This document shows, piece after piece, positions 1 to 19,487 of a DNA stretch of 20,000 nt. The notes beneath the pieces are model-generated. The model had not been told where the DNA came from and searched no databases. It saw only the letters and a list, made by a program, of their open reading frames with translations. This stretch comes from Pachysolen tannophilus NRRL Y-2460. Taxonomy: Eukaryota. The stretch's first letter is position 1. Every line of letters starts with the position of its first letter. Where the stretch lies: NCBI GenBank assembly GCA_001661245.1, contig KV454018.1, positions 356,582-376,581 on the forward strand, read 5' to 3'. The position numbers were made by a program, and so were the translations under genes.

Positions 1-1364
1 ACGCGATTTTTAGCTGGAGACGAAAGAGTATTATTGGCATTTACAATCCCAAGTGAGACTCTAGGAGGTTCAGCTAAAATTTCTTCTGGAGTAATAACGT
101 TACCTTTCTTAGGCGTTCTTGACGGAATTTGTTGCTGAGGATCATCTTTTAATCCATCTAAGGCAAAAGTAACTCTTCTTAATTTTGTCTTCAGCAATTT
201 AGCATCTGATAATTTTTTTTGTTTATTTTGTTCTTCTAGTAACTTATTTTCCAACTTTACTTGTGGAAGTGGGGATTTTAATGGAGACTGAGTACCTGAT
301 GATGCACCTGGAGCTCCCGAAGCAACTCCTAATCCTGTGTTCACGTTAGTTTGTGGTGCTTTTATAGGAGTTTGAGGTTTTGAAACACTCATTTTCCTTC
401 TTATGCCAAATAAACTTTTCTGTTCTGGTGATGAATTTTGAGGCGATAGATTTGATTGTGGTGTATGTTGCCCTCCTGTTTCAGGTACAAGTACAGCAGC
501 AGAATTTTTTGAAAATTTTGAAGAGATTGATGAAAATAATTTTTTTTTAGAATTTGAATTGGAACGTGATAACTCTGTTTGAACTTCACTATTAATTGTG
601 GGGAGTTTCCTAATTGAATTTTTTGCATGTGCAGCACCATTTGGAACTGGATCGCTTACTTTCCTATGAACTGGAGTTATCATTGATGAGGTTGATTCAG
701 AGGAAGACCGTTGTCTATTTGGTTGCAATATCTTACTTGTAGTTGGCAATTCATTCCCTGAAGATGATGCAGGTCTGGAATTTGAAGCAGGCGATGCAGT
801 ACCGCTATTGCTTCCAACAGTTCCAGCAGCACTCAGTGCTCCAAGACCACTTCCGTCACTGGAACTTGATTTTGTAACTGAAGCCAATGCTGATTTCAAT
901 GGCTGTGCCAGTGGCTGTTTTTCATCATGCAATTTTAAGTCCTCCAATTGTTCTGCTAGTGCAGACAGCGGTAGTGGCAGCAGTGACTGTGACTGTGACT
1001 GTGACTGTGGCAGTGGCGGCTGTTGTTGTGGTTGTTGTAGTTGTTGTTGCTGCTGCTGCCCCTGCTGCAATTTCTTTTTTTCGTCTTCATTACTATATAC
1101 GTGATGCTGCAGTTTTAATTGCGACTGCTGCTGTGACAAATCTTTTTTAGGTATTGGCTGCTTGGAAAAATTTAAAGTAACATCTTTATATTCTGGTTTT
1201 TTCTTTGCCAATTTCTTGCTAGCTTTACCTCTGAATAACCAATCAACATCACCATTGGAAACACCACTGTCAATGTCTATATCGCTAGGAGATGGAACAA
1301 TGCCCATACTATTTTTCAATTCATCGTCAATCTTAGAACCCATATCGTCCTTTCCCTCAGACAT
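1..1364 (-). CDS. GIP3: GIP3/HER1 (MHP1-related) Glc7/PP1-interacting protein, N-terminal part; continues beyond the left edge
   Basis: Manual translation from ATG at 1364 (MSEGKDDMGSK...) stays open to position 1. It contains DVDWLFRGK (cf. Gip3 VDWLYKGK), Q/S/P-rich low complexity, and LRRVTFALD...DDPQQQIPSRTPKKGNV (RVxF PP1-docking motif plus the family's conserved block). It is not in the ORF track because no stop falls in the window. Synteny with RPL5/COX11/RDS2 agrees. Confidence 0.85.
   Translation of the reverse strand, partial: MSEGKDDMGSKIDDELKNSMGIVPSPSDIDIDSGVSNGDVDWLFRGKASKKLAKKKPEYKDVTLNFSKQPIPKKDLSQQQSQLKLQHHVYSNEDEKKKLQQGQQQQQQLQQPQQQPPLPQSQSQSQSLLPLPLSALAEQLEDLKLHDEKQPLAQPLKSALASVTKSSSSDGSGLGALSAAGTVGSNSGTASPASNSRPASSSGNELPTTSKILQPNRQRSSSESTSSMITPVHRKVSDPVPNGAAHAKNSIRKLPTINSEVQTELSRSNSNSKKKLFSSISSKFSKNSAAVLVPETGGQHTPQSNLSPQNSSPEQKSLFGIRRKMSVSKPQTPIKAPQTNVNTGLGVASGAPGASSGTQSPLKSPLPQVKLENKLLEEQNKQKKLSDAKLLKTKLRRVTFALDGLKDDPQQQIPSRTPKKGNVITPEEILAEPPRVSLGIVNANNTLSSPAKNR
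961..1070 (-). repeat. Coding microsatellites (CAG/CAA, CAGTCA) encoding Q-rich and QS repeats in the GIP3-like gene
   Basis: Plus strand shows (gactgt)n and (tgt/tgc)n runs. Confidence 0.9.
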
Positions 1365-1701: not shown

Positions 1702-2006
1702 NNNNNNNNNNNNNNNNNNNNNNNNNNNNNNNNNNNNNNNNNNNNNNNNNNNNNNNNNNNNNNNNNNNNNNNNNNNNNNNNNNNNNNNNNNNNNNNNNNN
1801 NNNNNNNNNNNNNNNNNNNNNNNNNNNNNNNNNNNNNNNNNNNNNNNNNNNNNNNNNNNNNNNNNNNNNNNNNNNNNNNNNNNNNNNNNNNNNNNNNNNN
1901 NNNNNNNNNNNNNNNNNNNNNNNNNNNNNNNNNNNNNNNNNNNNNNNNNNNNNNNNNNNNNNNNNNNNNNNNNNNNNNNNNNNNNNNNNNNNNNNNNNNN
2001 NNNNNN
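1702..2006. other. Assembly gap (305 N)
   Basis: N run flanked by (aacaaat)n and poly-A on the left, and by (ccaatt[c/a])n and a long poly-A on the right. Confidence 0.99.
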
Positions 2007-2056
2007 GGCCTGGTAAAACCATAAAAACCATTTCCCAATTCCCAATTACCAATTCC

Positions 2057-3391: not shown

Positions 3392-4285
3392 TTAGTTTTC
3401 AGCTTTGAAAGCAGCAATTTTAGCAGCAACGCTAGCTCTTCTTTCTTCTTTAGTCAATTTAACTTGTCTGTATTTCTTTGATTCAGTAGCGTATTGTTCT
3501 TTTGTGAATTTCTTTTCAGTTGGTTTAAAAGAAGGATCTTCTCTAATGGCAGCATGAGCTTCTGTATAAATATCTTCAACACCATCAGCTTCAATATCAT
3601 CAGCCAAGTATCCTTTGAACAATTCTTTGAATTTTTCTTCATCATCATCAGCCAATTCTTCCATATATTCAGCAACGTGACCACCAAAGATGTATTTTCT
3701 TAACATTTCAGCATCTAATTCTTCAGATTCAACATCCCAACCTGGGAATCTGTTTGCAGAGTGAGGAACGTATAAACCACCATCAGAAGCACCTTTTAAA
3801 GCACCAAAGACTCTTGCACCGGTTGTAGTTCTTTGTAAACCAATATCTAAAAAGACTTTGAATGGTCTTGGACCATCTTCAACAGCTTCAGTTAATTCAA
3901 ATTCACCTTCAACTTCTTCAACACCTTTATAAGTTTCATCTAAACCTAATTTTTGTAAAGCTCTTCTAGCAACCAATAAACCAACAGCATAAGCTGCAGA
4001 CCAGTTGGTTAAACCATGAGTAATACCATATCTTGGTAATTCATGAGCATAAGCAGCAGTAAAGACAATATCACCGGTGATGGTAGAAGAAATAATTTGA
4101 GCAATGATATCCTTGTTGGTGAATCTAACAACTAATCTATATTTTGGAGTGTTGTATTTAGCCTTATGTTGAGCAACTAATCTCTTTCTTTGATAATAAT
4201 CAGTCTTACCTTCAGCTCTTCTTCTAAAAGGAGTCTGGTAACGGGAAAGGTAAGGAGAACTTTTCAAGACTTTTTGGAAAACCAT
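3392..4285 (-). CDS. RPL5: 60S ribosomal protein L5 (uL18), 297 aa
   Basis: MVFQK...[24 protein letters not shown]...[21 protein letters not shown]. The true ATG is at 4285; the ORF-track extension to 4318 starts at a non-ATG codon. Strong high-expression codon bias. Confidence 0.98.
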
Positions 4286-5416: not shown

Positions 5417-6295
5417 ATGATGTCAATCTCATCGGATCCACAAAAAACAACAGTTATTATTTCGAATCTTGCCAAAAAAGATTTCCCATTGAAGGAATCG
5501 TCTAATTCGTCATTATCACTGCCGCTGCCGCTGCTGCTGCTGCTGCTGCTGCTGCTGAATCTTGTTACAACTACATCATCAAGTTTAAAGCTTGCAGAAT
5601 TTTTAAAACTTAAAGTGCTACAAAAATTGGATACATTAAGTTTAATGAATGATTTAATAAAATGGATTAATTTACCAACTTTATCAAGAATTATTATTAA
5701 ATTTTCTACAGAATCTACATCTAAAAGAATTTATGAATATTTATTACTGAATTTTAGTAAAGATTATCCAGCTTTAGAAATTGATTTAATTTCACCTTTA
5801 GTTAGAACTAGATCTACAACAGATTCAATGTTAATTGCAAAAGATGGAAAATTGGATGCTCCTGATTATTTACAATTTCAAGATTTAAATGTACATTGCA
5901 AATTGAAAAATTCAAATAATACTTGTTATCAAGAACCAAGACCACAAAAATCTCCTGCAAGTTCTGCAAGTAATACACCTTTAGCATCACCAATTGATAG
6001 TAGTATTCTTAACGTTAGTGGTAGTGCTAGTGGTAGTGAATATTTTTTCGATGAAAGTGATCATAGCCGTAGTCGTACTCCACAAGTGATATATTCTCCT
6101 ACTCAGTATCAAGGAAAAGAATCAGATGTATTCCGTTATGATATTAACACAGGTGATTGTGATTATGATCATGAAAAACCAAATTTAAGCATTAATACTA
6201 ATATCAACGCAAGTAAAATTTTTGAAGGAGTAAATAGCTCCGATAGTATTCAAGAAAGTCCGATAATTACACTTGATGAAACTTTTACGAAGTAG
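5417..6295 (+). CDS. RCN2: Regulator of calcineurin, Rcn2-like
   Basis: N-terminal RRM-like segment (TTVIISNL...LPTLSRIIIKF), then RTRSTTD, YQEPRP, KPNLSINT and C-terminal SPIITLDE (PxIxIT-like). These match recalled Rcn2 motifs (LPFLNRIIIIF, RSRSTDD, YQEPLP, SPSITVNE). Syntenic with STE13 and MCT1. Confidence 0.8.
   Translation: MMSISSDPQKTTVIISNLAKKDFPLKESSNSSLSLPLPLLLLLLLLLNLVTTTSSSLKLAEFLKLKVLQKLDTLSLMNDLIKWINLPTLSRIIIKFSTESTSKRIYEYLLLNFSKDYPALEIDLISPLVRTRSTTDSMLIAKDGKLDAPDYLQFQDLNVHCKLKNSNNTCYQEPRPQKSPASSASNTPLASPIDSSILNVSGSASGSEYFFDESDHSRSRTPQVIYSPTQYQGKESDVFRYDINTGDCDYDHEKPNLSINTNINASKIFEGVNSSDSIQESPIITLDETFTK
5519..5557 (+). repeat. In-frame CTG-CCG-CTG-CCG-(CTG)9 microsatellite in RCN2
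   Basis: Directly visible; in frame with the ATG at 5417. Confidence 0.95.
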
Positions 6296-6627
6296 TATTT
6301 TTTAATAATCTTATTTGCTTTTTTAGTTAAATTTTTTTTTTTTAATTTGTTTTCATTTTCCAATTTTTATTATTTATTTGGGTGGTTATTCTTTCTTTTT
6401 TTTTCACTTTATAAAGAGAGTTTCTAGGAATAGGTTTGATTAGGTCATTTTTTAATCCATTTTTATATTATATATTCTATTAGCAAAAGAAAGAAAAAAA
6501 AAAATAAAAAAGAGGTAAAAGAAATTTTTTATTTTTTATTTGTTTTTGAAAGTTTAATAAATAATTTATTTATATGATGTATATATACAAGATACTTTTA
6601 CTCTCCTCCTCTTCTCTTTTTTGTCTT

Positions 6628-7557
6628 TTATGTTGTTTTAACCTTAACTGGTTCCGCTGATTCATTGTCGATTGGTGTTATCTGTGTAGTGGTATTACCT
6701 GGTCCCCCAGTAACTGCTACTAATTGTTGACCATCTTTATAATTAGCTTTGAAAAACGTATAATGCAAGACGATATCATCAACATTTCTCATGGTTGGAT
6801 CATTAACAAATTCTGGATCTATAAAGAAAAACAAAGGCATATCTATTTCTTCACCAGCATTCAATTTTTGTTCTTCAAAACAAAAACATTGAATCTTGTT
6901 GAAATAAGGCGCAACATGATCTGGAGTAACCGAATATGTAGCCATTCCAATAATATCCTTATCACTGTTATTCTTGGCCTTATAAAAGGCTAACGCAGTT
7001 TCCCCTGGAACCAAATAAACTTCTCGTTGTTGTGGTACAAATTTCCAAGGAAGAATTCTTGAAGTCTCTGCTGTAAATTGTACTCTAATTTTCTTGTTTG
7101 TATCAACGGCTACAACCTTATCAGGTGTCATCTTTGATGAATCAGTCATTGGAGTACCACCCCAACCTGTTTTCTGACATAAAGCTCTATATAATGGAAC
7201 TGATCCAAAAGCTAATGATAAAAACATTAACGCGAGACTACACCCATAAAGAAAAATCGTCTGATTACCCTTACGAGCCTTGGTCTCCTTTTGCCTCCGT
7301 ACCAACTCTTGGAAATCTTCTTTAGAAAGCTTAGAAAGCATCTGCTGAACCTCAGATTTCGAAAGTTGAGGCTTGTCTTGCTCACGTAATTCTTGGAAAT
7401 TTTTATTCAAATAATGGAAATCACGTTTAGAAACCAATACTACTACTCTACCATTAATACCACCACTACCGTAACCAAAACTCCTATTTAAAAATTTTGA
7501 AAAATCACCACTCCTCATAAAACTCCTTCCAAATAAACTTTTAAGTCTCAAACTCAT
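6628..7557 (-). CDS. COX11: Cytochrome c oxidase copper chaperone Cox11
   Basis: Arg/Ser-rich mitochondrial presequence, one TM helix, VPLYRALCQKTGWGG, and YFNKIQCFCFEEQKL (Cu-binding CFCF motif). Confidence 0.97.
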   Translation of the reverse strand: MSLRLKSLFGRSFMRSGDFSKFLNRSFGYGSGGINGRVVVLVSKRDFHYLNKNFQELREQDKPQLSKSEVQQMLSKLSKEDFQELVRRQKETKARKGNQTIFLYGCSLALMFLSLAFGSVPLYRALCQKTGWGGTPMTDSSKMTPDKVVAVDTNKKIRVQFTAETSRILPWKFVPQQREVYLVPGETALAFYKAKNNSDKDIIGMATYSVTPDHVAPYFNKIQCFCFEEQKLNAGEEIDMPLFFFIDPEFVNDPTMRNVDDIVLHYTFFKANYKDGQQLVAVTGGPGNTTTQITPIDNESAEPVKVKTT

Positions 7558-8027
7558 TCTCCTTTCCTTATAATCAATCTTACTTCAACAATAACTTCAA
7601 TTTATAAATCATCCATATTGTTAAGTACTGTTTTTTGATGGTTTTTGCTGAAAAATTAATCTGACCCAAAACGAACGACCGTAACTTGTTGTTTTACTTT
7701 TAATTTTTTATTTTTTTTTAAAGAACTATTTGAATTTTAAATTCATTAGAATAACAAAAGTTAATCAGTTGACAACCTGTTGATAATAAGATATCCTGAT
7801 TCAACTGTTTCATTAAGGATAAATCTCAGATTATGGGAATTGAATTCTTGATAGAAAGTTGATATCATAATTTGGTCAGTAATTAAAGTATTTGTTCTTA
7901 CTAAGACGCACGACTTGAGTTTAAAATTTATAATAAAAAGAACAAAAGAACCACGATTGCGATTTAATTTAAAATTTGTTTGGTTGATTGGATTTGGTTT
8001 TATTGATCGGAAAAATTAACTTGAGAA

Positions 8028-10031
8028 ATGACATCGTTAAATGGTAATAAATTAGTTCCCATAGCGCCTGCTATGGGTATAAGTGATAGCAATAATGGTG
8101 GTAATAATCATATTGGAAATGATAGTACGGCGGGTACGCCATCTCAAAAAATGTCTATATCCCCTTCCCAACAACTCCAATCTCCACCAGAGAACCAGGA
8201 TACAACAACCTCATTAACATCGGGGACTCCAGTGTTTCAGCAGCATAATCAGCAGAATAATCAGCAACATCAACTGTTGGATCAAAGACTGCAGAGTGAA
8301 GAGGTACTGAAGGAGAAAAGTAAAAGGCGTAAAGTGGATATTGCTTGTGTTTATTGTCGGAGATCACATATGATTTGTGATGACTCAAGACCATGTCAGA
8401 GGTGTATAAAGAGAAACATTGGGCATCTTTGCCATGATGAGCCTGTAAGTACAAGGCAAAAGAAAAGATATGAGGCAAAACAAGCAAAACATGGTCATCA
8501 GGTGTCACCAGCTAATTTAGAAGGAGTATCTACAACTTCAGATTTTAATAATACGCAGAAAACAACAACAACCACAACAACTTTATTTTTGAATAATAAT
8601 CAAAGCACAATGTATAATAGAAATAATGACAATCATCGTAATGACAATAAGGAAAGCAATGGAAATGATAATGATTCGATAACACAAAAAAATGGATCTT
8701 CAGAAACAATTCAAAATAACGGTAATAATTACAATAATCCAGCAGTTCCCAATGATTCTAATCCACCTCCTCCTCTTCAACAACTTACTGGAAATCAGAC
8801 CCAAAATGGTAGTGGTAATAACTTATTTTTAAGTCAGCAACCAGTTTTCTTTTCAGAGCATGCTGGAAGTGAATTTAGTTCATTGAATGAGTTTTTGCAA
8901 ATGATTGATGATCCAGAGTTTTTAATTTCAATGAATAATGATCCCATCTTACAAAATATTGATAATTCCTTGTTAACACACAATAATTCTACGGCCAACC
9001 TTCAACAAATGGGTACTAACGGTAATGGTGTATCAAACTCGTTATTTGGAGCACCTACACCTGCACCTGTATCCGCACCCGTATCCGCACAACAACAACC
9101 TCATAATTCACAATTCAATGATAATGGCAATTTATCGTTTTCTCCACTTTTCCAATCATCCACTAATTTAAATCAGTTAAACTCTGGAGGTAATAATTAT
9201 CTGCAGTCGCCTCTGCAAACGCAACAACTTCATGATCAACTCCAGCAGCAATCGCAACAGAATCCAAGTCAACAGCTGTCGCATCCTTTAGGTGCATCAG
9301 CATCGTCGGGAAATCGGACAGCTCCAACTTCGTCACAGGGACCACAACAGCCACACGCAGTTCCATTTGTATCTGATAGTGCAAGAGATAAATTTTTCTT
9401 GACAGCGGCAGATCCAACTACAGATTTCTCAGCAGAGGAAAGATTAAAACAGGTTATTAATGCAAAATTAGAAGCAGGATTATTGAAACCTTATAATTAC
9501 GCAGAAGGGTATGCAAGATTACAAAGATATATGGATAGTCATATGAACCCATCTTCAAGACAACGAATTTTGAAACCGTTATCAGTTTTTAGGCCAGCTT
9601 TTAGGGCAATTGCTAAAACATTAAAAGATATTGATTTGATATTGGTAGAAGAAAGTTTTGAAAGAATGCTACTTGATTACGATAGAGTTTTCACTTCAAT
9701 GGCCATCCCTGCGTGTCTTTGGAGAAGAACTGGTGAGATTTACAGAGGAAATAAAGAATTTGCTTCTTTAGTTGAGGTTTCCATTGATGATTTAAAAAAT
9801 GGTAAATTAACTATTTATGAATTGATGAGCGAGGAAAGTAGTGTTAATTTTTGGGAGAAATATGGTTCAATTGCCTTTGATAAGACCCAAAAGGCAGTTT
9901 TAACCAGTTGTAAGTTGAAGACAAAAGATGGTAGAAAGAAGAAAAACTGTTGTTTCAGTTTTACTATCAGAAGAGATAGATACAACATTCCAAGTTGTAT
10001 TGTAGGTAACTTTATACCTATCTCTGAATAA
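8028..10031 (+). CDS. RDS2: Zn2Cys6 transcription factor with C-terminal PAS-like domain (Rds2/Cwt1/AcuM family)
   Basis: CVYCRRSHMICDDSRPCQRCIKRNIGHLC zinc cluster; C-terminal FLTAADP...AGLLKPYNY...PACLWRRTGEIY...CCFSFTIRRDRYNIPSCIVGNFIP. Divergent from COX11, as in S. cerevisiae. Confidence 0.92.
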   Translation: MTSLNGNKLVPIAPAMGISDSNNGGNNHIGNDSTAGTPSQKMSISPSQQLQSPPENQDTTTSLTSGTPVFQQHNQQNNQQHQLLDQRLQSEEVLKEKSKRRKVDIACVYCRRSHMICDDSRPCQRCIKRNIGHLCHDEPVSTRQKKRYEAKQAKHGHQVSPANLEGVSTTSDFNNTQKTTTTTTTLFLNNNQSTMYNRNNDNHRNDNKESNGNDNDSITQKNGSSETIQNNGNNYNNPAVPNDSNPPPPLQQLTGNQTQNGSGNNLFLSQQPVFFSEHAGSEFSSLNEFLQMIDDPEFLISMNNDPILQNIDNSLLTHNNSTANLQQMGTNGNGVSNSLFGAPTPAPVSAPVSAQQQPHNSQFNDNGNLSFSPLFQSSTNLNQLNSGGNNYLQSPLQTQQLHDQLQQQSQQNPSQQLSHPLGASASSGNRTAPTSSQGPQQPHAVPFVSDSARDKFFLTAADPTTDFSAEERLKQVINAKLEAGLLKPYNYAEGYARLQRYMDSHMNPSSRQRILKPLSVFRPAFRAIAKTLKDIDLILVEESFERMLLDYDRVFTSMAIPACLWRRTGEIYRGNKEFASLVEVSIDDLKNGKLTIYELMSEESSVNFWEKYGSIAFDKTQKAVLTSCKLKTKDGRKKKNCCFSFTIRRDRYNIPSCIVGNFIPISE

Positions 10032-10541
10032 ATGACAATTTTTCATTCAGAATTTTTTCTTTATATTTTTTTTTTTTTTTCTTTCCCTTTTATTTTTCTT
10101 TCATAACTCTTTTGTAATTTTATATAATTTCATGCTGGCATCGGTTTATTTGTAACGATATTGTGATAATCTGAGTTAATGTTTTTACTTTTAGTTTAAT
10201 TCAAAAAAAAAATTATAGTTCCAATTTGCTTCATGTTGTCGCTTGTTGTATCAAGGGGCGTGCGTGTAAAAAGTGAAATCTGAAATCTGGAGAAAAAACA
10301 TTGTTCGGACAGCCTTCGCCAGGACATCATCACCTCACCTCACTTCACGCCATTGAATAAGTTCGGTAGGTTTATGGCAGCTGCTCTTTTGTGTGTTTTT
10401 TTTTTCCGTCAATTGGTGGTGATTGAGAGCCATTGTTTATATTTTTTTTTTCTTATTTTTTTTTTTTTTAATTGGTGTTGTTGATTGGGATTTGTGAATT
10501 GAAACATTTCACTGGGAGAAATTGATCAATCGGGTGGATAA

Positions 10542-11801
10542 ATGTTTAAAACAATGAATAGGTTTGTGCCTAATGGGAATTGGGTTCGGATGCTTTCTAC
10601 AAAAGTTTCAACTTCAAGTAGAACGATTATAGTGACTCCTGGCCAAGGTATATTTAAAAAAGAATCAATTGAGTTTTTAACCAAATATTTGAAATCGACT
10701 GATGAAGATTCAATTATTAGTCCTACGTTACATGAGAATGTTAATAATTTAATGGAGACATCTAACAAGGTATGTGGTTTTAATATTTCCAAATATTTGA
10801 CAGATTTGGACAATTTAAGTGGATCTGATTTACAGAAAACTTCAATTCAACAACCTTTAATGATCTTAACCGATCTGATTATTAATCAAATTTTAAAAGA
10901 TCAATTTGAATTAGATATTTATGATGATGAAAAATATCAAGTTGATTATACTCTAGGTCATTCTTTAGGTGAAATTACAAATCTAGTTTTACAAGAAACC
11001 ATCTCATTTGAAGATGGTATTAAATTAGCTCATGAGAGAGGGATATTAATGGAAAAATTAATAGGTGATGTTTTATCTAAGAAAAATGAAGGTTATAAAA
11101 TGTATGTATTAATGGTAAGACCACAATTATTTGATGCAACTCTTTTTTTTTTAAAACAAAATAAAGATATAAATATTTCCAATATCAATTCTTCAGAACA
11201 GATTGTGATTTCTGGTTTAAATTCAGATGTCTTAAAAGCTATAAATGGTTTAAAATCATGTTTAAAAAATCATGATTCAAAATTTAAACTTAAACCTATT
11301 GATTTAAATGTTGAAATTCCTTTCCATAACGCTATTTTAAAGCCAATTGTTAAAGATTTAAACAATATGATAATTAATGATGATATTAAGAGTGTAGCCC
11401 CGTTAACTAGATGGTTACCAATCCCGCTGATTTCAAATCTCGATGGTTCAATAAATAAAAATTCATCTGATTATATTGCCAAAATACTTGCAGTTACATA
11501 TCAAACAATAGATTTTAAGAAATGCCTAGAGACAATTTTACTGAAAGCTGAAACTGAAGCCCTTGCAACCGATAATAACCATGAAAATTATGGTATTTCA
11601 ACTTTAAATTTTATTAATTTTGGACCTGGAAACGTTACCAAAAACTTAATAAGCAGATTTTTCAAAAATAATGATAACGAACTAAACAGATTGAAATTAA
11701 CAATTAATAATTACTCATTGGATAGCGATGATAATATCCATGAGTTTGTTTGTGCGTTTCGTAAATTAAAGAAACCAAAACAAAAACAAGAAATTTTTTG
11801 A
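10542..11801 (+). CDS. MCT1: Mitochondrial malonyl-CoA:ACP transacylase (FabD-like)
   Basis: PGQG, catalytic GHSLG, ERG.LM, PFHN, ISN and NFGPG motifs; presequence-like N-terminus. Confidence 0.88.
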   Translation: MFKTMNRFVPNGNWVRMLSTKVSTSSRTIIVTPGQGIFKKESIEFLTKYLKSTDEDSIISPTLHENVNNLMETSNKVCGFNISKYLTDLDNLSGSDLQKTSIQQPLMILTDLIINQILKDQFELDIYDDEKYQVDYTLGHSLGEITNLVLQETISFEDGIKLAHERGILMEKLIGDVLSKKNEGYKMYVLMVRPQLFDATLFFLKQNKDINISNINSSEQIVISGLNSDVLKAINGLKSCLKNHDSKFKLKPIDLNVEIPFHNAILKPIVKDLNNMIINDDIKSVAPLTRWLPIPLISNLDGSINKNSSDYIAKILAVTYQTIDFKKCLETILLKAETEALATDNNHENYGISTLNFINFGPGNVTKNLISRFFKNNDNELNRLKLTINNYSLDSDDNIHEFVCAFRKLKKPKQKQEIF

Positions 11802-12407
11802 CAATGATTACCATCAAATACAATTTTTTTTTACAACATAATATAGAAAATAATCATTTACTTATAATTCAATATTCACTTCAACAAACCATCATTCTTC
11901 AATCAAGATCTGTAGTCATACTATAAAAGAATATGAATAATACTCATCTGGAGTCCGAAAAGGAGAGGTAGTCAACCGTCTTTCTCTTTCTCTTTCTCTT
12001 GCTTGACCTTGAGATGCCTTCTTCTTTCTATCCGGTGAGCAAGAGCTTTTCTTTTTCTGACTGGACTGCAGACTGCAAGGGCCATCCATCCATCCTTCCA
12101 TCCCCTTTACAAACAGGGGCGGGACTTCTTTTCTCTAGGAAATAGTATTGTACTTCCAATGGTTTCCCCGGACCCTCTCCGAACCGGTTGCATAGTTGAG
12201 AAGAGCCATTAAACGGCGGGCGGCGGTGGCGGCAGTTTAATATAAAGCTGGAGGAGAAGATATTACAAGATACGTCTTATATATATATATATCTATATAT
12301 TTGACATTAAATTAGGAATTGTCATTTGTTCTTTCTCTTGTTTAATTTTTTTTTACGATCATATTCGCTTGTGTGAAATAATAATTAGTGATAGTTAGTC
12401 TGGGAAA

Positions 12408-13052
12408 ATGTCAGGTTCATCTGTAGAGGAAGAAACTAAGAAAGTTGCGGAATCAGTTTTGCCGTCATCTTCAGATGATACAACAGATTCATCATTGAGA
12501 TATGCTGCTTATGCCAATAGGTTCAGGACAATCTTGTTGGCCTCGCATAGGTACATTGCTTATTCTTCTGATATTGGTGAAAGTTTTAGACCTGTTGCCC
12601 ACCCTTATTTGGTTAAATCAGGTTATCTCATTTCTTGGACTTATGTATTAGGTGATGTTGCTTTTGAAGGTTGGAAGGCAAAATTAAGAAAAGAAGGTAA
12701 ATATATTCCAGGTTTGAGACCTTGGGATAAAGTACCTGAGGCCAGTCCATTGGCAATTGCAGCAGCCAAAGATGAACCAGATTATAAATTTACAATGATT
12801 AAAAGAGGTGTATTCCAAAGTATTGCATCTATGGGATTACCAGCATTTACAATCCATTCCTCGGTCAGATATTCTTCACTTTTATTTAAAAATTCCTCAA
12901 ATAAGTTTTTGAAAACTTGGGGACCAGTTGGTGTAGGTTTGGCAATTGTTCCATTATTACCAACTTTTTTCGATGAACCGGTAGAACATGCTGTTGACTA
13001 TATTTTTGACGAGGGAGCTAAATATTTCAATACAAAGGCAAAGGTTGAATAA
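12408..13052 (+). CDS. MTFP1: Mitochondrial fission process protein 1 / MTP18 family
   Basis: LRYAAYANR...RYIAYSSDIGESFRPVAHP, FQSIASMGLPAFTIH and PLLPTFFDEPVEHAV, typical of fungal MTP18-family proteins. Confidence 0.85.
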   Translation: MSGSSVEEETKKVAESVLPSSSDDTTDSSLRYAAYANRFRTILLASHRYIAYSSDIGESFRPVAHPYLVKSGYLISWTYVLGDVAFEGWKAKLRKEGKYIPGLRPWDKVPEASPLAIAAAKDEPDYKFTMIKRGVFQSIASMGLPAFTIHSSVRYSSLLFKNSSNKFLKTWGPVGVGLAIVPLLPTFFDEPVEHAVDYIFDEGAKYFNTKAKVE

Positions 13053-13223
13053 ATCACATTTTAAACCTTGATTCAAATTATTCACCTCTTTGGAAGCTTC
13101 TCTTGTAATAATGCCTATTTATAGCATACTTCCTTTCTTGTTGCTTTATCTCCCTATCTCACTATTACTCTTACTCTTACTCTCACACATTTATAAACAC
13201 TATGTGTGTGTATATGTGTCGGT

Positions 13224-13244
13224 CGGTAATCGGAGATTATTTCT
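13224..13244 (+). promoter_or_regulatory. CGG-N4-CGG element resembling the C. albicans Tac1 drug-responsive element
   Basis: CGGTAATCGGAGATTATTTCT versus the DRE CGGA(A/T)ATCGGATATTTTTTTT, about 190 nt upstream of the PDR16 ATG. Confidence 0.5.
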
Positions 13245-13423
13245 TTTTCTTTTTCCGCTTGTGTTTTGAAAAATTGAAATTTTTTTTTTTTTTTATTCTT
13301 TTTTTTTAGCTTTTTTAGCTTTTTTGGTTGATGTTGTTGATGTGTCTAAACAAGAGTTTATATATATTAAATACGAATTTATATATTCCCTCTTAAGATT
13401 TCGAGTTTGAATGAAGTGAGATA

Positions 13424-14458
13424 ATGTTTGGTTTTTTAAGTAAAGAGGAAATAAAACCTAGTGTGAAGAAAGATTTAGGTCCAAAAATTTATGAACCTTT
13501 TGAAAAACCACTTGATGGCTTAAAATCGACTCCACGCGACCCATTAACTCTAGATCAAGAGAAACAATATTTGGAAGTTTTGAATCATTTTTTAAATGAT
13601 GAATTATCATTACCAGTACGAGAAAAACCAGAAGATTCTTTGGAGTTAAGAAAATTAACCTATGATGAAAAATCATGGTTAACAAGAGATTGTATATTAA
13701 GATATATTAGAGCATGTAATTGGAAACTTTCAGATGCTATCAAGAGACTTGAAAATTCATTGATTTGGAGAAGAGATTTTGGTATATCAGGTGGAGAGTT
13801 TCAAACTTTAACTGAAGATGTTGTAGCGATAGAGAATGAAACAGGGAAACAATTAATTTTTGGTTATGATAATGGTTGTAGGCCATGTCTTTTTTTAAGA
13901 AATGGGAAACAAAATACAAAAGCTTCATTTAGACAAATTCAACATTTAATATTTATGTTAGAATCAGTAATTGATTTTATGCCACCAGGTGAAGATAATT
14001 TAGCTTTATGTGTTGATTTTAAAGCATACCCAGAAATTTCTATTAAAGGTGCAAATATGCCATCAGTAAGTGTTGGTAAACAAATTTTACATATTTTACA
14101 ATACCATTACCCAGAAAGATTAGGAAGAGCATTATTTGTTAATATTCCATGGTATGCTAGAATTTTCTTGGATATTTGTTACCCATTTGTTGATCCATAT
14201 ACAAAACAAAAAATTTCATTTGATAAACCATTTTCTGAATTCATTCCATTAGCACAATTAGGAGTTGAATATGATGGTGATGCTAATTTCGAATATGTTC
14301 ATGAGAAATATTGGCTGCTGCTTAATAGAATTAAAGATACAAAGAGAAAACATTATATGGATAGATTTGAAAAATTGGGTGCCACTATTGGTTTAAACGA
14401 ATTGGATTTAAGAAGTGATGCACCAATTGTGGATGGAAAAGTTATTTATAAACAATAG
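13424..14458 (+). CDS. PDR16: Sec14-like (CRAL-TRIO) phosphatidylinositol transfer protein, Pdr16/Pdr17 (Sfh3/4) family
   Basis: WLTRDCILRYIRACNW, ENETGKQLIFGYDNGCRP, LQYHYPERLGRA, PFVDPYTKQK, GATIGLNELDLR. PDR16 versus PDR17 is not resolved. Confidence 0.85.
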   Translation: MFGFLSKEEIKPSVKKDLGPKIYEPFEKPLDGLKSTPRDPLTLDQEKQYLEVLNHFLNDELSLPVREKPEDSLELRKLTYDEKSWLTRDCILRYIRACNWKLSDAIKRLENSLIWRRDFGISGGEFQTLTEDVVAIENETGKQLIFGYDNGCRPCLFLRNGKQNTKASFRQIQHLIFMLESVIDFMPPGEDNLALCVDFKAYPEISIKGANMPSVSVGKQILHILQYHYPERLGRALFVNIPWYARIFLDICYPFVDPYTKQKISFDKPFSEFIPLAQLGVEYDGDANFEYVHEKYWLLLNRIKDTKRKHYMDRFEKLGATIGLNELDLRSDAPIVDGKVIYKQ

Positions 14459-14589: not shown

Positions 14590-15036
14590 CTAACCGCGGC
14601 GAATGAGAATATAAACATTTTCCTGTTTCAAACTTGACAAAGTTCTGTAGTCACCATCAATACACATCAACAAGCCTCCAAATGAGATATATACACTTAT
14701 ATTATCATTTGAACCTTCTTCAAATTTATAAACCGTCCCATGCATCACGTAATCGTACTCGTCAGCAAGCGATCTTTCGTCAGATTTTGGAGGTCTCCAA
14801 CTAGCAACATTCCCCGTCATCGGCTCATCTATATCCTCTTCATCAACAGAAAGAGACTTGGCCAAAGCAATTGTTAACGTGTCATTCTCACTAACTGGAA
14901 ACAATTCTGAATTTATATCTAATGTGATCGTTGTCTCTTTTGTAGTCGAAGTTGCCTCGATACGTGAAACTTTGTTATATCTCGCAGAATCCACACTCTT
15001 TACTTGAAGTGTATCGTCAAATAGCGTCGATGACAT
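14590..15036 (-). CDS. RPB8: RNA polymerase I/II/III shared subunit Rpb8 (ABC14.5), 148 aa
   Basis: MSSTLFDD...LDINSELFP...[17 protein letters not shown]...SFGGLLM. First ATG at 15036. Confidence 0.97.
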
Positions 15037-15876: not shown

Positions 15877-18729
15877 ATGTTTGCGAGGATTCAAGATCCG
15901 TTCTCAAATAATAATGATAATAATGACCGTTTGTTTGATCAGGATATAGAGTTGCAGCAGGCCTCTTCTTTTGTGAAAAGTAGTTCTGATTCTTCGTCAT
16001 CTTGTGCGTCGATAGTATTAGAGAATTTGAATCAATATTCTGAGCGTCAACAGCAACAACAAAGGCAACAACAACAACCGCCACCGCCACCGCCACTGTC
16101 ACTGTCACTGCCACCTCCGCCTATTGATCAAAGTTTTAACATAGATGATGAAGATTATTATAGAGGAGAAGAGAATAATGGCGGTTTGGTGCTTGATGAG
16201 TTGAATCTTTACGAGAAATTCAGGAGAAGATGGATGTGGAAACAAAAACAAATTTGTTTAGTGTTATTTGGAGTTTTCTTTATCGTTTGGTTAATACTGT
16301 TGATAAGTTATTCCAAAGGTGGGTCTGCGTTTAGAAACATTAATAAGTATACACCAGAGGTTGGAAGTAATAGAACTGATTTGCATACAAGTAGACCTTC
16401 ATCGATTGCAAGTAATTTAGAAAACCCAGTGGTAATTGATGGTATAGATAAAAAGAGAAAGATAACTCTTGATGAACTTAGAACTGGAAGATTCTACGTT
16501 CATGATGTAAATGTTAAATTACTTGATACCGATTATGATGATGAAGGTGTTTACCTTGAACAAATTGCTGGTCAATTTGTCTTGAGGAAAAATTCAAATC
16601 CTAATTTTAAACAAGTAATCTTGGAAGAACTGGAATTTCAATATGGTGATGAAATTCTTCAAGTTTCAGGATTTGAGTTGAATCATAAATTAGATAAGGC
16701 ATTAATAAGTACAGATGTTATTAAAGAATATAGATATTCATCATTTGCAAGATATTGGATTTATGATTTAAATACAAAGGAAATTGAACCATTATATGAA
16801 CAAATCCTTAAGGATAATGATAATGACAACGTTGGTGGAAATTTTAAAATTATTCCAGGGTTAAGTTTTGCTCAATGGTCTCCAATGGCTAATTATGTGA
16901 CATTTGTATTGGATAATAATGTATTTGTTAAAAAATTATCAAGTAATGAAGTTTTACAACTAACTACAGATGGATCATCAAATATTTTTAACGGAAAATC
17001 TGATTGGATTTATGAAGAAGAAGTTCTTGGTACAGATGTAGCAATTTGGTGGGCTCCAGATGAGTCGGGATTTGTTTTCCTTACTTTAAATGATACCAAC
17101 GTACCAACTTATGATTTGGAATTTTTTGTTCAACAATCTGATCTGAAATATCCAGTTATAGAAAGCTTAAAATACCCAAAACCGGGTTATAATAATCCAA
17201 TTCCTACATTGCATAGTTATAATGTAATTGAAAACAAATTAGAAATAATTAGTCATCTCGATTCAAAATTGGGAGATGATTTTATTGTTTATGATTGTGC
17301 ATATATTGATAATGAAAACGTTTTGATTAAAGAAACTGATAGAGAAAGTAATATATTAGATGTTAGAGTTTACAATCCTAAAAATTCAAATTCAAAAGTA
17401 GTTAGAACTGTTGATGCAGTTAAAGAATATAACGGCTGGCATGAACAGGTAAATGCTGTTACAATAATTCCACCAAGTGAAACATATAGTAGATCGAATT
17501 ATGGTTATGTCGATCAAGTTGTAATAGACGGTTATCCCCATTTAGCTTATTTTGCTAAAATTGATGATTCTTCTCCTTATACTATTTTAACTTCTGGTGA
17601 TTGGGAAGTTTTAAATGATGGTATAAAATTTAATCTGCAGACTAACAAGATATTTTTTTTGGCCAACAAAAAATCTTACCTTGATCATCATTTATATTCA
17701 GTTAATTTGGATGGACAAAATTTAACTTCATTGACAAATGATTCACAAAATGGGCATTATACGGTTAATTATTCTCCAAGTGGAAGATATTGTGTTTTAA
17801 ACTATAAAGGTCCAGATTTACCTATACAAAAAATTGTTGATTTGAATCATTTTTCAGAAAATTATTATGAAGATTCTATTCTGATAAATAATAATATCAA
17901 GGCTAAATTAGCTCAAGAAACTTTCCAAATTCCAAAAACTAAACAACATGAAGTTACTGTAATGGATGGAACAAAAGATAGCCTTGATTTAACTGTTATT
18001 GAAGTTCTTCCTGAAAATTTTGATCCTAACAAAAAATACCCATTATTAGTTAGTGTTTATGGAGGACCTGGTTCTCAAAAATTATCATTAGAATACGAAG
18101 TTAGATTAGAACAAGTTATATGTTCCTCTTTGGATGCAATTGTGATTTATATAGATCCAAGAGGCACTGGTGGCAGAGGATGGAAATTCAGATCATATGC
18201 AAACAAGAATCTTGGATATTGGGAACCAAGAGATATAACTGACGCCACTAAGTTATATATGGAATCTAAATCATATATCGATACATCTAAAGTGGCAATT
18301 TGGGGATGGAGCTATGGTGGATACACTACATTAAAGACATTAGAGTATGATACAGGAAATGTTTTCAAATACGGAATGGCTGTGGCACCTGTTACAGATT
18401 GGACATTTTATGATTCCGTATATACAGAAAGATATATGGATAAACCTTTAAATAATAAACAAGGTTACAAACAAAGTTCCATCAAAAACATTAAAAATTT
18501 TGCCAATGTTAAAAAATTTTTAATTATGCATGGGACTGCTGATGATAATGTACATTTCCAAAATACTTTATCCCTTTTAGATAAATTTGATACCAATAGT
18601 ATTGAAAATTATGATGTTCACATTTTTCCCGATAGTAATCATAGCATATATTATAATAATGCAAATACCATAGTTTTTGACAAATTATATAATTGGTTAA
18701 AAAATGCTTTCGAAGGAAAGTTCCAATGA
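15877..18729 (+). CDS. STE13: Dipeptidyl aminopeptidase A (S9B/DPP-IV family), type II membrane protein
   Basis: First ATG at 15877; long cytosolic tail, one TM helix, DWIYEEE, catalytic GWSYGG / HGTADDNVH / DSNHSI. The long tail, YWEPRD and synteny favour STE13 over DAP2. Confidence 0.9.
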   Translation: MFARIQDPFSNNNDNNDRLFDQDIELQQASSFVKSSSDSSSSCASIVLENLNQYSERQQQQQRQQQQPPPPPPLSLSLPPPPIDQSFNIDDEDYYRGEENNGGLVLDELNLYEKFRRRWMWKQKQICLVLFGVFFIVWLILLISYSKGGSAFRNINKYTPEVGSNRTDLHTSRPSSIASNLENPVVIDGIDKKRKITLDELRTGRFYVHDVNVKLLDTDYDDEGVYLEQIAGQFVLRKNSNPNFKQVILEELEFQYGDEILQVSGFELNHKLDKALISTDVIKEYRYSSFARYWIYDLNTKEIEPLYEQILKDNDNDNVGGNFKIIPGLSFAQWSPMANYVTFVLDNNVFVKKLSSNEVLQLTTDGSSNIFNGKSDWIYEEEVLGTDVAIWWAPDESGFVFLTLNDTNVPTYDLEFFVQQSDLKYPVIESLKYPKPGYNNPIPTLHSYNVIENKLEIISHLDSKLGDDFIVYDCAYIDNENVLIKETDRESNILDVRVYNPKNSNSKVVRTVDAVKEYNGWHEQVNAVTIIPPSETYSRSNYGYVDQVVIDGYPHLAYFAKIDDSSPYTILTSGDWEVLNDGIKFNLQTNKIFFLANKKSYLDHHLYSVNLDGQNLTSLTNDSQNGHYTVNYSPSGRYCVLNYKGPDLPIQKIVDLNHFSENYYEDSILINNNIKAKLAQETFQIPKTKQHEVTVMDGTKDSLDLTVIEVLPENFDPNKKYPLLVSVYGGPGSQKLSLEYEVRLEQVICSSLDAIVIYIDPRGTGGRGWKFRSYANKNLGYWEPRDITDATKLYMESKSYIDTSKVAIWGWSYGGYTTLKTLEYDTGNVFKYGMAVAPVTDWTFYDSVYTERYMDKPLNNKQGYKQSSIKNIKNFANVKKFLIMHGTADDNVHFQNTLSLLDKFDTNSIENYDVHIFPDSNHSIYYNNANTIVFDKLYNWLKNAFEGKFQ

Positions 18730-18974: not shown

Positions 18975-19487
18975 CTACTGTGGTTTTGAATAATTTAAAG
19001 TTCCACATTTTATACAAGTTCTCTTCTCTAAATCACCATCAAAACTTAAAATTGCTTCTTTAACTTGAGTACCTAAATCATAACAATAGAATTCGATCTC
19101 ATGAACAATATCTTTACAATTAGAACAATACCATCTAATTTTATCATTAACATCTTTTGGTCTATCTTGTTCCAATACAATTCCAACTGTATCTTTAAAC
19201 CTAACTGGATTATGTGGGGTATTCCCAGGTAATAAGAAAGAATCACCTTGATTAATTATTACATCTTTGAAAACACCATCATCAACAACTTTCAAGCACA
19301 TTGTACCTTTGTATTGATAAAACCATTCTGGAGTTTGGTTAACATGATAATCAGTTCTTTCATTAGGTCCACCCACAATCATTACAGTAAAACCTCCTCT
19401 GTGTAAGCAATAATTATTTACAGGAGGTTGGAGTAACTGTTCATTTTCCTCTAGCCACTTATTGATATTGATTGGTTGAGGTAGCAT
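18975..19487 (-). CDS. BNA1: 3-hydroxyanthranilate 3,4-dioxygenase (kynurenine pathway, de novo NAD synthesis)
   Basis: [34 protein letters not shown], and the rubredoxin-like WYCSNC and CIKC pairs. Confidence 0.97.

What the first reader, a model, noticed from the sequence alone, without database searches (positions are those of the whole stretch)
5519..14323. CTG usage pattern points to a reassigned CUG codon (Ala favoured, Ser possible)
Seen: by manual reading I found no in-frame CTG in RPL5, COX11, RPB8, BNA1, MTFP1 or the conserved domains of RDS2. CTG is frequent in disordered regions: RCN2 CTG-CCG-CTG-CCG-(CTG)9, GIP3 (GCA CTG AGT GCT GCT; CCA CTG GCA), the RDS2 Q/N-rich linkers and the STE13 Pro-rich tail (16096-16110). 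In PDR16, TGG CTG CTG CTT (14312-14323) aligns to the recalled family motif YWPAL, which reads better as YWAAL than YWLLL. Known: CUG is Ser in the Candida and Saccharomycopsis clades, Ala in the Pachysolen clade, and mixed Ser/Leu in Ascoidea asiatica. Inference: standard-code translations here are wrong at CTG, and low GC plus Ala-like contexts suggest a Pachysolen-like yeast. Counter-evidence: MCT1 P-CTG-ISN (11427) sits at a normally V/I column, and low GC alone depletes CTG.
Basis: partly seen in the sequence, partly recalled or inferred. Interest (0 to 1): 0.75.

Follow-up and report, generated by a model that had tools for sequence, protein, structure and literature searches.

The report
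Yeast that reads CTG as alanine

Summary
Only 2 of 39 CTG codons lie in Pfam-matched stretches, against 160 of 368 other Leu codons.

Ten CTG codons could be aligned to homologues. Leu averages 4% at those columns, against 38-49% at TTA, TTG and CTT columns. Ala fits best, Ser trails by 0.64 nats and Leu by 5.21. None of 2000 resampled sets of true Leu columns scored as low.

Three stored public proteins from the same 947,628-base contig match the window's ORFs letter for letter only under NCBI table 26, where CTG is Ala. Tables 1 and 12 do not match.

In gene trees the window forms its own lineage outside the Ser1, Saccharomycetaceae and Pichiaceae groups.

This is the published CUG-Ala code of the Pachysolen clade (Alaninales). 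In P. tannophilus it was shown with a tRNA-Ala(CAG) and by proteomics (PMC4937558).

I could not check the tRNA: no genome is held and the window has no tRNA. From the window alone, Leu is rejected and Ala is only moderately preferred over Ser. Verdict: real and correctly read, but already known.

The parts
5519..5557 (+). CTG CCG CTG CCG (CTG)9 in the calcipressin-like ('RCN2') ORF 5417-6295. Under table 26 it reads A-P-A-P-A9.
   Evidence: The ORF stays open through the tract. It was not alignable to homologues because no search was made for this protein.
5747..5749 (+). Single CTG (codon 111) in the same ORF.
   Evidence: Not aligned.
14315..14320 (+). CTG CTG (codons 298-299) of PDR16 (ORF 13424-14458), after TGG and before CTT.
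   Evidence: Homologue columns: P 70, D 21, K 16 of 119 at 298; A 69, D 18, T 11 of 119 at 299. Leu share is 0.00 at both.
10875..11543 (+). Three CTG codons of MCT1 (ORF 10542-11801): 10875-10877, 11427-11429 and 11541-11543.
   Evidence: Columns of 119 homologues: V 55, T 31 at the first; V 91, I 20 at the second; N 43, S 25, A 23 at the third. Leu is 4, 1 and fewer than 3.
16096..16110 (+). CTG TCA CTG TCA CTG inside the Pro-rich N-terminal tail of STE13 (ORF 15877-18729).
   Evidence: The columns are mostly gaps in homologues and were dropped.
16297..17883 (+). Five single CTG codons of STE13: 16297-16299 (membrane anchor), 16630-16632, 17143-17145, 17635-17637 and 17881-17883.
   Evidence: Column 141 is G 49, A 17, L 13. 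Column 252 is S 27, R 16, T 15. Column 587 is L 17, K 14, P 14, A 14. Column 669 is N 17, T 16, I 14. Column 423 is gapped and was dropped.
8274..9278 (+). Six CTG codons of the RDS2/ERT1-like gene (ORF 8028-10031), at 8274, 8289, 8307, 9201, 9213 and 9276. All lie in Q/N-rich linkers.
   Evidence: All are outside Zn_clus 106-130 and PAS_13 561-636. Not aligned.
192..1112 (-). Eight CTG codons of the GIP3-like ORF (3-1364, runs off the window), at 192-194, 834-836, 909-911, 966-968, 978-983, 1011-1013 and 1110-1112.
   Evidence: Only codon 391 (192-194) lies beside the conserved RRVTF...DPQQQIPSR block. Its column in 48 representatives is S 11, K 7, D 6, N 5, A 2 and L 0.
3392..4285 (-). RPL5, with no CTG among 22 Leu codons. 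COX11 (6628-7557 -), MTFP1 (12408-13052 +), RPB8 (14590-15036 -) and BNA1 (18975-19487 -) also have none.
   Evidence: for the counts, for Pfam identities.

Best explanation
The window is nuclear DNA of a budding yeast of the CUG-Ala clade (order Alaninales: Pachysolen, Nakazawaea, Peterozyma). It is most likely Pachysolen tannophilus or a very close relative. In this clade CTG (CUG) is decoded as alanine (NCBI table 26).

The mechanism is taken from the literature and was not shown here. The ancestral tRNA-Leu(CAG) was lost. A tRNA of alanine type with anticodon CAG took over the codon. It carries the G3:U70 pair and A73, which alanyl-tRNA synthetase recognises, and it has no long variable arm.

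What I infer from the window: old CUG-Leu codons were purged, so none remains at conserved Leu columns and housekeeping genes have none. New CTG codons then arose by single-base changes from CCG, CAG, GTG or TTG/CTN, at places where a small residue is tolerated. That puts them mainly in Pro/Gln-rich disordered linkers and at variable surface columns. The (CTG)9 tract then encodes a poly-Ala run.
For: (1) CTG avoids Leu columns. At the 10 alignable CTG columns, the mean Leu share in homologues is 0.043 and never exceeds 0.16. At TTA, TTG and CTT columns it is 0.49, 0.40 and 0.38. The summed log-likelihood puts Ala first, Ser at -0.64 and Leu at -5.21 nats. 0 of 2000 resampled sets of 10 true Leu columns scored as low. 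Among poorly conserved Leu columns the share was 0.0005.

(2) Ala against Ser. The observed A-S difference is +0.64. Conservation-matched true Ala sets give -0.51 +/- 1.21, and matched true Ser sets give -2.00 +/- 0.94. By my arithmetic that is about +0.95 sd under Ala and +2.8 sd under Ser.

(3) Stored public proteins P0001, P0121 and P0241, from a contig of 947,628 bases, equal the window's ORFs letter for letter under table 26 and not under tables 1 or 12. That is 13 of 13 CTG codons read as Ala.

(4) CTG is nearly absent from conserved domains: 2 of 39, against 160 of 368 for other Leu codons, 100 of 199 for Ala and 127 of 390 for Ser. Pro is 17% of CTG neighbours against 5% overall.

(5) Placement. 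The best named hits in all three searches are Pichiaceae or Phaffomycetaceae at only 35-62% identity. In the STE13 tree the window pairs with one unnamed protein (95*). It lies outside the Ser1 (100*), Saccharomycetaceae (100*), Pichiaceae (94) and Wickerhamomyces/Ascoidea (96*) groups. In the PDR16 tree it pairs with two unnamed proteins (93/88) beside Pichiaceae.

(6) No hit is named Pachysolen, although other yeasts are named. The tool hides names for the window's own proteins. That a named P. tannophilus proteome exists at NCBI is recalled.

(7) Literature. P. tannophilus tRNA(CAG) has G3:U70 and A73, and 97.2% of 907 fully supported CUG positions were Ala by LC-MS/MS (PMC4937558, passages). 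The Ala clade is Pachysolen, Nakazawaea and Peterozyma (PMC5951914, passages; PMC11182611, passages).
Against: Only 10 of 39 CTG codons could be tested, and the margin of Ala over Ser is small (0.64 nats).

Four columns fit Ser slightly better than Ala: STE13 252, STE13 669 and MCT1 334, and GIP3 391, where S is 11 and A is 2 of 48.

Two MCT1 columns (112 and 296) are hydrophobic V/I columns where Leu scores a little better than Ala. About 110 of the 119 MCT1 rows are bacterial-type FabD proteins.

The table-26 match shows what annotators chose, not how the cell translates. The ESM Atlas holds the standard-code reading of the 5417-6292 ORF letter for letter, so public translations disagree.

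No tRNA gene is in the window and no genome is held, so the defining tRNA was not seen.

No named Alaninales sequence was available for the trees, so membership of that order is inferred by exclusion.

The ~30% GC match to Pachysolen is recalled. I found no published figure.
Confidence: 0.92

Rival explanations
1. CUG is read as serine (table 12), as in Serinales (Candida and relatives) or the Saccharomycopsis/Ascoidea clade. CTG codons then mark Ser in disordered, Ser/Pro/Gln-rich regions.
For: Ser is second best, only 0.64 nats behind Ala. Columns STE13 252, STE13 669, MCT1 334 and GIP3 391 fit Ser a little better. The PDR16 tree does not separate the window from the two Ser2 rows, which sit in an open fork.
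Against: The observed A-S of +0.64 lies about 2.8 sd above conservation-matched true Ser sets. PDR16 299 is Ala in 69 of 119 homologues and Ser in 3. The hydrophobic columns MCT1 296 and STE13 141 penalise Ser. The window lies outside the Ser1 group (100*) and outside the Ascoidea/Wickerhamomyces group (96*) in the STE13 tree. The stored proteins do not match table 12.
Confidence: 0.04
2. The code is standard (CUG = Leu). CTG is merely rare and unevenly spread because of low GC and codon bias in highly expressed genes.
For: GC is 27-36% along the window and GC3 is 0.14-0.35. The CTG-free genes include highly expressed ones such as RPL5. The ESM Atlas holds the standard-code reading of one ORF.
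Against: Leu share at CTG columns is 0.043, against 0.38-0.49 at TTA, TTG and CTT columns. Leu trails by 5.21 nats. 0 of 2000 true Leu resamples scored as low, and 0.0005 of poorly conserved ones. CTG is more frequent than CTA or CTC, so it is not simply depleted. A run of 9 Leu, or L-S-L-S-L inside a poly-Pro tail, would be odd in disordered regions; that last point is my inference.
Confidence: 0.01
3. CUG is decoded ambiguously, as Ala mixed with Ser or Leu, like the stochastic Ser/Leu decoding of Ascoidea asiatica.
For: CTG is kept away from conserved domains more strongly than any of Leu, Ala or Ser codons, as expected if its meaning were unreliable. Ten columns cannot exclude a mixture.
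Against: The same avoidance follows from recent re-emergence of the codon after reassignment. For P. tannophilus, 97.2% of fully supported CUG positions were Ala (PMC4937558). [quoted passage not shown]
Confidence: 0.03

Closest known systems
Pachysolen tannophilus nuclear code (NCBI table 26, CUG = Ala); CUG-Ala clade / order Alaninales (Pachysolen, Nakazawaea, Peterozyma)
   Same: CTG avoids Leu columns and fits Ala best. Stored proteins of the contig equal the table-26 translation. The genome is AT-rich. The lineage sits beside but outside Pichiaceae. These agree with PMC4937558, PMC5951914 and PMC11182611 (passages).
   Different: No difference was found. The tRNA-Ala(CAG) and peptide evidence were not seen for this record, and the species assignment is inferred.
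CUG-Ser1 code (table 12) of Serinales (Candida albicans and relatives)
   Same: The same codon is reassigned. The same signature appears: CTG missing from conserved Leu columns and re-appearing at variable, polar positions.
   Different: The amino acid differs (Ser, through a tRNA-Ser(CAG) with a long variable arm). The window lies outside the Ser1 group in the STE13 tree. Its columns favour Ala over Ser.
CUG-Ser2 clade (Saccharomycopsis, Ascoidea), including stochastic Ser/Leu decoding in Ascoidea asiatica (PMC6041473, abstract in the listing)
   Same: It is a CUG reassignment in a budding yeast lineage.
   Different: Those species keep or compete with a tRNA-Leu(CAG) and read Ser. Here the public translation and the columns point to Ala. 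The STE13 tree puts Ascoidea with Wickerhamomyces (96*), apart from the window.

Membership tests
CUG-Ala nuclear code (NCBI table 26, Alaninales) | In-frame CTG codons do not sit at conserved Leu columns | tested here: met
   Across 10 columns the mean Leu share is 0.043 and the maximum is 0.16. Leu trails by 5.21 nats. 0 of 2000 true Leu resamples scored as low.
CUG-Ala nuclear code (NCBI table 26, Alaninales) | CTG columns are best explained by Ala rather than Ser | tested here: met
   Ala ranks first and Ser is 0.64 nats behind. The observed A-S is +0.95 sd under conservation-matched Ala sets and +2.8 sd under matched Ser sets. This is modest support from only 10 columns.
CUG-Ala nuclear code (NCBI table 26, Alaninales) | A tRNA with anticodon CAG and alanine identity (G3:U70, A73, short variable arm) | not testable with these tools
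   ARAGORN finds 0 tRNA genes in the window and no whole genome is held. The tRNA is published for P. tannophilus (PMC4937558).
CUG-Ala nuclear code (NCBI table 26, Alaninales) | No tRNA-Leu(CAG) or tRNA-Ser(CAG) in the genome | not testable with these tools
   No genome is held.
CUG-Ala nuclear code (NCBI table 26, Alaninales) | Peptides show Ala at CUG positions | not testable with these tools
   Only published data for P. tannophilus exist: 97.2% of 907 fully supported positions (PMC4937558).
CUG-Ala nuclear code (NCBI table 26, Alaninales) | Phylogenetic position in Alaninales, sister to Pichiales | tested here: inconclusive
   The window is a separate lineage outside the Ser1, Saccharomycetaceae, Pichiaceae and Wickerhamomyces/Ascoidea groups, and beside Pichiaceae in the PDR16 tree. 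No named Alaninales row was available and the backbone is unresolved.
CUG-Ala nuclear code (NCBI table 26, Alaninales) | The public record is translated with table 26 | tested here: met
   P0001, P0121 and P0241 are identical to the table-26 translations and not to tables 1 or 12.
CUG-Ser code (table 12) | CTG columns are best explained by Ser, and the lineage lies inside Serinales or Ascoideales | tested here: not met
   Ser ranks second. The window is outside the Ser1 group (100*) and the Ascoidea-containing group (96*) in the STE13 tree. The PDR16 tree leaves Ser2 unresolved.
Standard code (CUG = Leu) | CTG columns resemble those of other Leu codons | tested here: not met
   Leu share is 0.05 at CTG columns, against 0.49 for TTA, 0.40 for TTG and 0.38 for CTT. 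The LIVMF share is 0.27, against 0.70-0.75.

The most novel reading that the evidence does not exclude
CUG in this lineage may not be read purely as alanine. A minor Ser or Leu fraction, from a second tRNA(CAG) or from mischarging, could persist. That would explain why CTG is kept out of conserved domains more strongly than Ala, Ser or Leu codons are (2 of 39, against 33-50%). A second possibility is that the record comes from a still uncharacterised Alaninales lineage whose decoding has never been measured.
Probability: 0.04. Interest if true: 0.55.

Novelty: already known. Interest (0 to 1): 0.1.

Why it matters
The practical point is that any standard-code translation of this region is wrong at 39 codons. 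For example, it gives a false Leu9 run and a false YWLLL motif in PDR16. At least one such mistranslation sits in a public protein atlas.

Biologically, the window is a clean small-scale example of a known rarity, a sense-codon reassignment in a nuclear genome. It also shows that the change can be detected from 20 kb alone. It adds nothing new to what was published in 2016-2018.

Tried and rejected
Steps that failed or gave nothing:
- Whole genome for a tRNA(CAG) search: not held. ARAGORN on the window found 0 genes.
- Earlier notes on this genome: none.
- The look-up of sequencing runs: five holders with 0.99 of the words, under coded names. No RNA holder is listed. It gave nothing on decoding or species.
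I therefore made no check of the (CTG)9 tract length in other runs.
I wanted it to test which of the table 26, 1 and 12 readings of the 5417-6292 ORF is on record, and to get names for GIP3-like and PDR16-like hits.
The table-11 reading gave only a calcipressin lead at 0.91.
- Pfam gave no family for the 'GIP3' and 'RCN2' ORFs, so those names stay unverified.

Rejected readings:
- The ORF full of X at 1588-2031 is an artefact of 305 N, not a CTG repeat.
- Low GC as the sole cause was rejected.

Not examined or not found:
- I found no published GC figure for P. tannophilus (search; passages).

Rows and columns dropped:
- The window's own proteins (P0001, P0121, P0241) were dropped before all column counts.
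- Columns with more than 30% weighted gaps were dropped. That removed STE13 codons 74, 76, 78 and 423.
Full report
What is there. The window is AT-rich, with GC of 0.27-0.36 per 2 kb. It carries 11 intron-free ORFs.

Pfam confirms nine of them:
- RPL5 (Ribosomal_L5e)
- COX11 (CtaG_Cox11)
- an RDS2/ERT1-like regulator (Zn_clus 106-130, PAS_13 561-636)
- MCT1 (Acyl_transf_1, below the curated cut-off)
- MTFP1 (MTP18)
- PDR16 (CRAL_TRIO)
- RPB8
- STE13 (DPPIV_N and Peptidase_S9)
- BNA1 (3-HAO)

The observation. The 11 ORFs hold 39 in-frame CTG codons among 4,274 codons. There are 8 in GIP3-like, 12 in 'RCN2', 6 in RDS2, 3 in MCT1, 2 in PDR16 and 8 in STE13. RPL5, COX11, MTFP1, RPB8 and BNA1 have none.

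CTG is not simply depleted by low GC. With 39 codons it is commoner than CTA (16) or CTC (9). Its distribution, however, is skewed:
- Only 2 of 39 CTG codons lie in Pfam-matched stretches.
- The figures for comparison are 160 of 368 for the other Leu codons (Fisher p = 4.6e-7; 4.5e-5 if the RCN2 tract counts once), 100 of 199 for Ala codons and 127 of 390 for Ser codons.
- The five CTG-free genes hold 90 other Leu codons (p = 5.6e-5; 7.8e-4 with the tract counted once).
- Pro makes up 17% of CTG neighbours, against 5% overall.

Column test. I searched homologues of STE13, MCT1 and PDR16 with CTG masked as X. I aligned the query with the 119 best hits of each, leaving out the window's own stored protein. 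A fourth search with the GIP3-like ORF gave 48 representatives that share the block RRVTF...DPQQQIPSR.

Of the 14 CTG codons inside aligned regions, 10 sit in columns with at most 30% gaps. The other 25 were not examined: 7 in GIP3-like, 12 in RCN2 and 6 in RDS2.

Leu is the commonest residue at only one column, STE13 587, with 17 of 119. The weighted mean Leu share at the nine CTG columns of the first three proteins is 0.05. At TTA, TTG and CTT columns it is 0.49, 0.40 and 0.38.

I built an empirical substitution table from all non-CTG columns of the same alignments and scored the ten columns with it:
- Ala ranks first. Ser is 0.64 nats behind, Lys 1.03 and Leu 5.21.
- None of 2000 random sets of ten true Leu columns scored as low for Leu. 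Among poorly conserved Leu columns the share was 0.0005.
- For Ala against Ser, the observed difference is +0.64. Conservation-matched Ala sets give -0.51 +/- 1.21, and matched Ser sets give -2.00 +/- 0.94.

So Leu is rejected. Ala is preferred over Ser only moderately, by roughly 25 to 1 on a normal approximation (my arithmetic).

Results against Ala are these. STE13 252, STE13 669, MCT1 334 and GIP3 391 fit Ser slightly better. MCT1 112 and 296 are V/I columns where Leu scores a little better than Ala. The MCT1 alignment is dominated by bacterial-type FabD rows.

Public translation. The three searches each returned a protein from one contig of 947,628 bases, listed without source or name, as the tool does for the window's own proteins. 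These are P0001, P0121 and P0241. They equal the window's ORFs letter for letter under NCBI table 26 and not under tables 1 or 12, so 13 of 13 CTG codons are read as Ala. Whoever annotated the record therefore treated it as a CUG-Ala yeast. This is an annotators' choice, not a measurement. The ESM Atlas holds the standard-code reading of the 5417-6292 ORF letter for letter.

Placement. The best named hits are Pichiaceae (Kuraishia, Candida boidinii, Ogataea, C. arabinofermentans, Komagataella) and Wickerhamomyces, at only 35-62% identity.

In a STE13 tree of 30 rows the window pairs with one unnamed protein (SH-aLRT 95). It lies outside the Ser1 (100), Saccharomycetaceae (100), Pichiaceae (94) and Wickerhamomyces/Ascoidea (96) groups, and the backbone is unresolved. 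In a PDR16 tree of 20 rows it pairs with two unnamed proteins (93/88) next to Pichiaceae. The two Ser2 rows are unresolved there.

The clade labels come from passages of PMC5951914 and PMC11182611, and partly from recall for Babjeviella, Hyphopichia, Priceomyces, Spathaspora, Lodderomyces and C. arabinofermentans.

No hit is named Pachysolen, although many other yeasts are. Given that the window's own proteins are shown nameless, this fits Pachysolen tannophilus as the source. That step rests on my recollection that a named proteome of that species is public.

What is known. Muhlhausen et al. 2016 (PMC4937558; abstract and passages) showed that the P. tannophilus tRNA(CAG) has the alanine determinants G3:U70 and A73 and lacks an extended variable loop. 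They also found that 97.2% of 907 fully supported CUG positions were Ala by LC-MS/MS. They propose reassignment driven by tRNA loss (section title seen in the preprint).

Krassowski et al. 2018 (PMC5951914; passages) extend the Ala clade to Nakazawaea and Peterozyma. Groenewald et al. 2023 (PMC11182611; passages) name the order Alaninales, with CUG-Ala as a diagnostic character. Riley et al. 2016 is cited there, but I did not read it.

How it most likely works. Shown here: CTG is not Leu, it fits Ala best, and the record is annotated with table 26. Taken from the literature: an Ala-type tRNA(CAG), charged by alanyl-tRNA synthetase through the acceptor stem, decodes CUG.

Inferred: old CUG codons were purged and new ones arose by single-base changes from CCG, CAG, GTG and Leu codons wherever Ala is tolerated. 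Three observations fit this:
- CTG clusters in Pro/Gln-rich linkers.
- PDR16 298 sits at a Pro column (P 70 of 119).
- MCT1 296 sits at a Val column (V 91 of 119).

Verdict. The phenomenon is already known.

Noticed in passing
window 1703-2007: A run of 305 N lies in the GIP3-RPL5 intergenic region, flanked by A-rich tracts. It creates a false 147-aa ORF full of X on the minus strand (1588-2031). It may be a scaffold gap or a withheld stretch; I cannot tell which.
   Followed up: partly
By language-model features its nearest named atlas clusters are calcipressin (PF04847) at 0.91, which is a lead only. In S. cerevisiae the calcipressin is RCN1 (recalled), so the name RCN2 may be wrong.
   Followed up: partly
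window 5417-6292 (+): The ESM Atlas holds the standard-code reading of this ORF letter for letter, with a Leu run at the (CTG)9 tract. A probably mistranslated copy is therefore in a public protein collection.
   Followed up: no
window 3-200 (-), GIP3-like residues ~393-448: There is a strongly conserved block, RRVTF followed by DPQQQIPSRxPxxGNV. It is shared with 48 representative proteins, mostly 1,000-1,600 aa long. RVTF looks like a PP1-docking RVxF motif (recalled). The Leu just before the CTG codon is conserved, while the CTG column itself is variable.
   Followed up: partly
window 10542-10553 (+): The stored public MCT1 protein starts at the second in-frame Met, giving 415 aa against the 419-aa ORF.
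   Followed up: no
window 1110-1115 (-), 8289-8294, 9201-9206, 17635-17640 (+): CTG is followed directly by CAG at four sites and by CAA at 9213-9218. This fits an origin of CTG codons within Gln-rich tracts by single-base change, but I did not test it against chance.
   Followed up: no
P0242, P0243 (PDR16 hits), P0006 (STE13 hit): These unnamed proteins from short assembled contigs are the window's closest relatives, at 65-67% and 46% identity. They group with the window in both trees. They may come from other Alaninales yeasts, probably translated with the standard code.
   Followed up: partly
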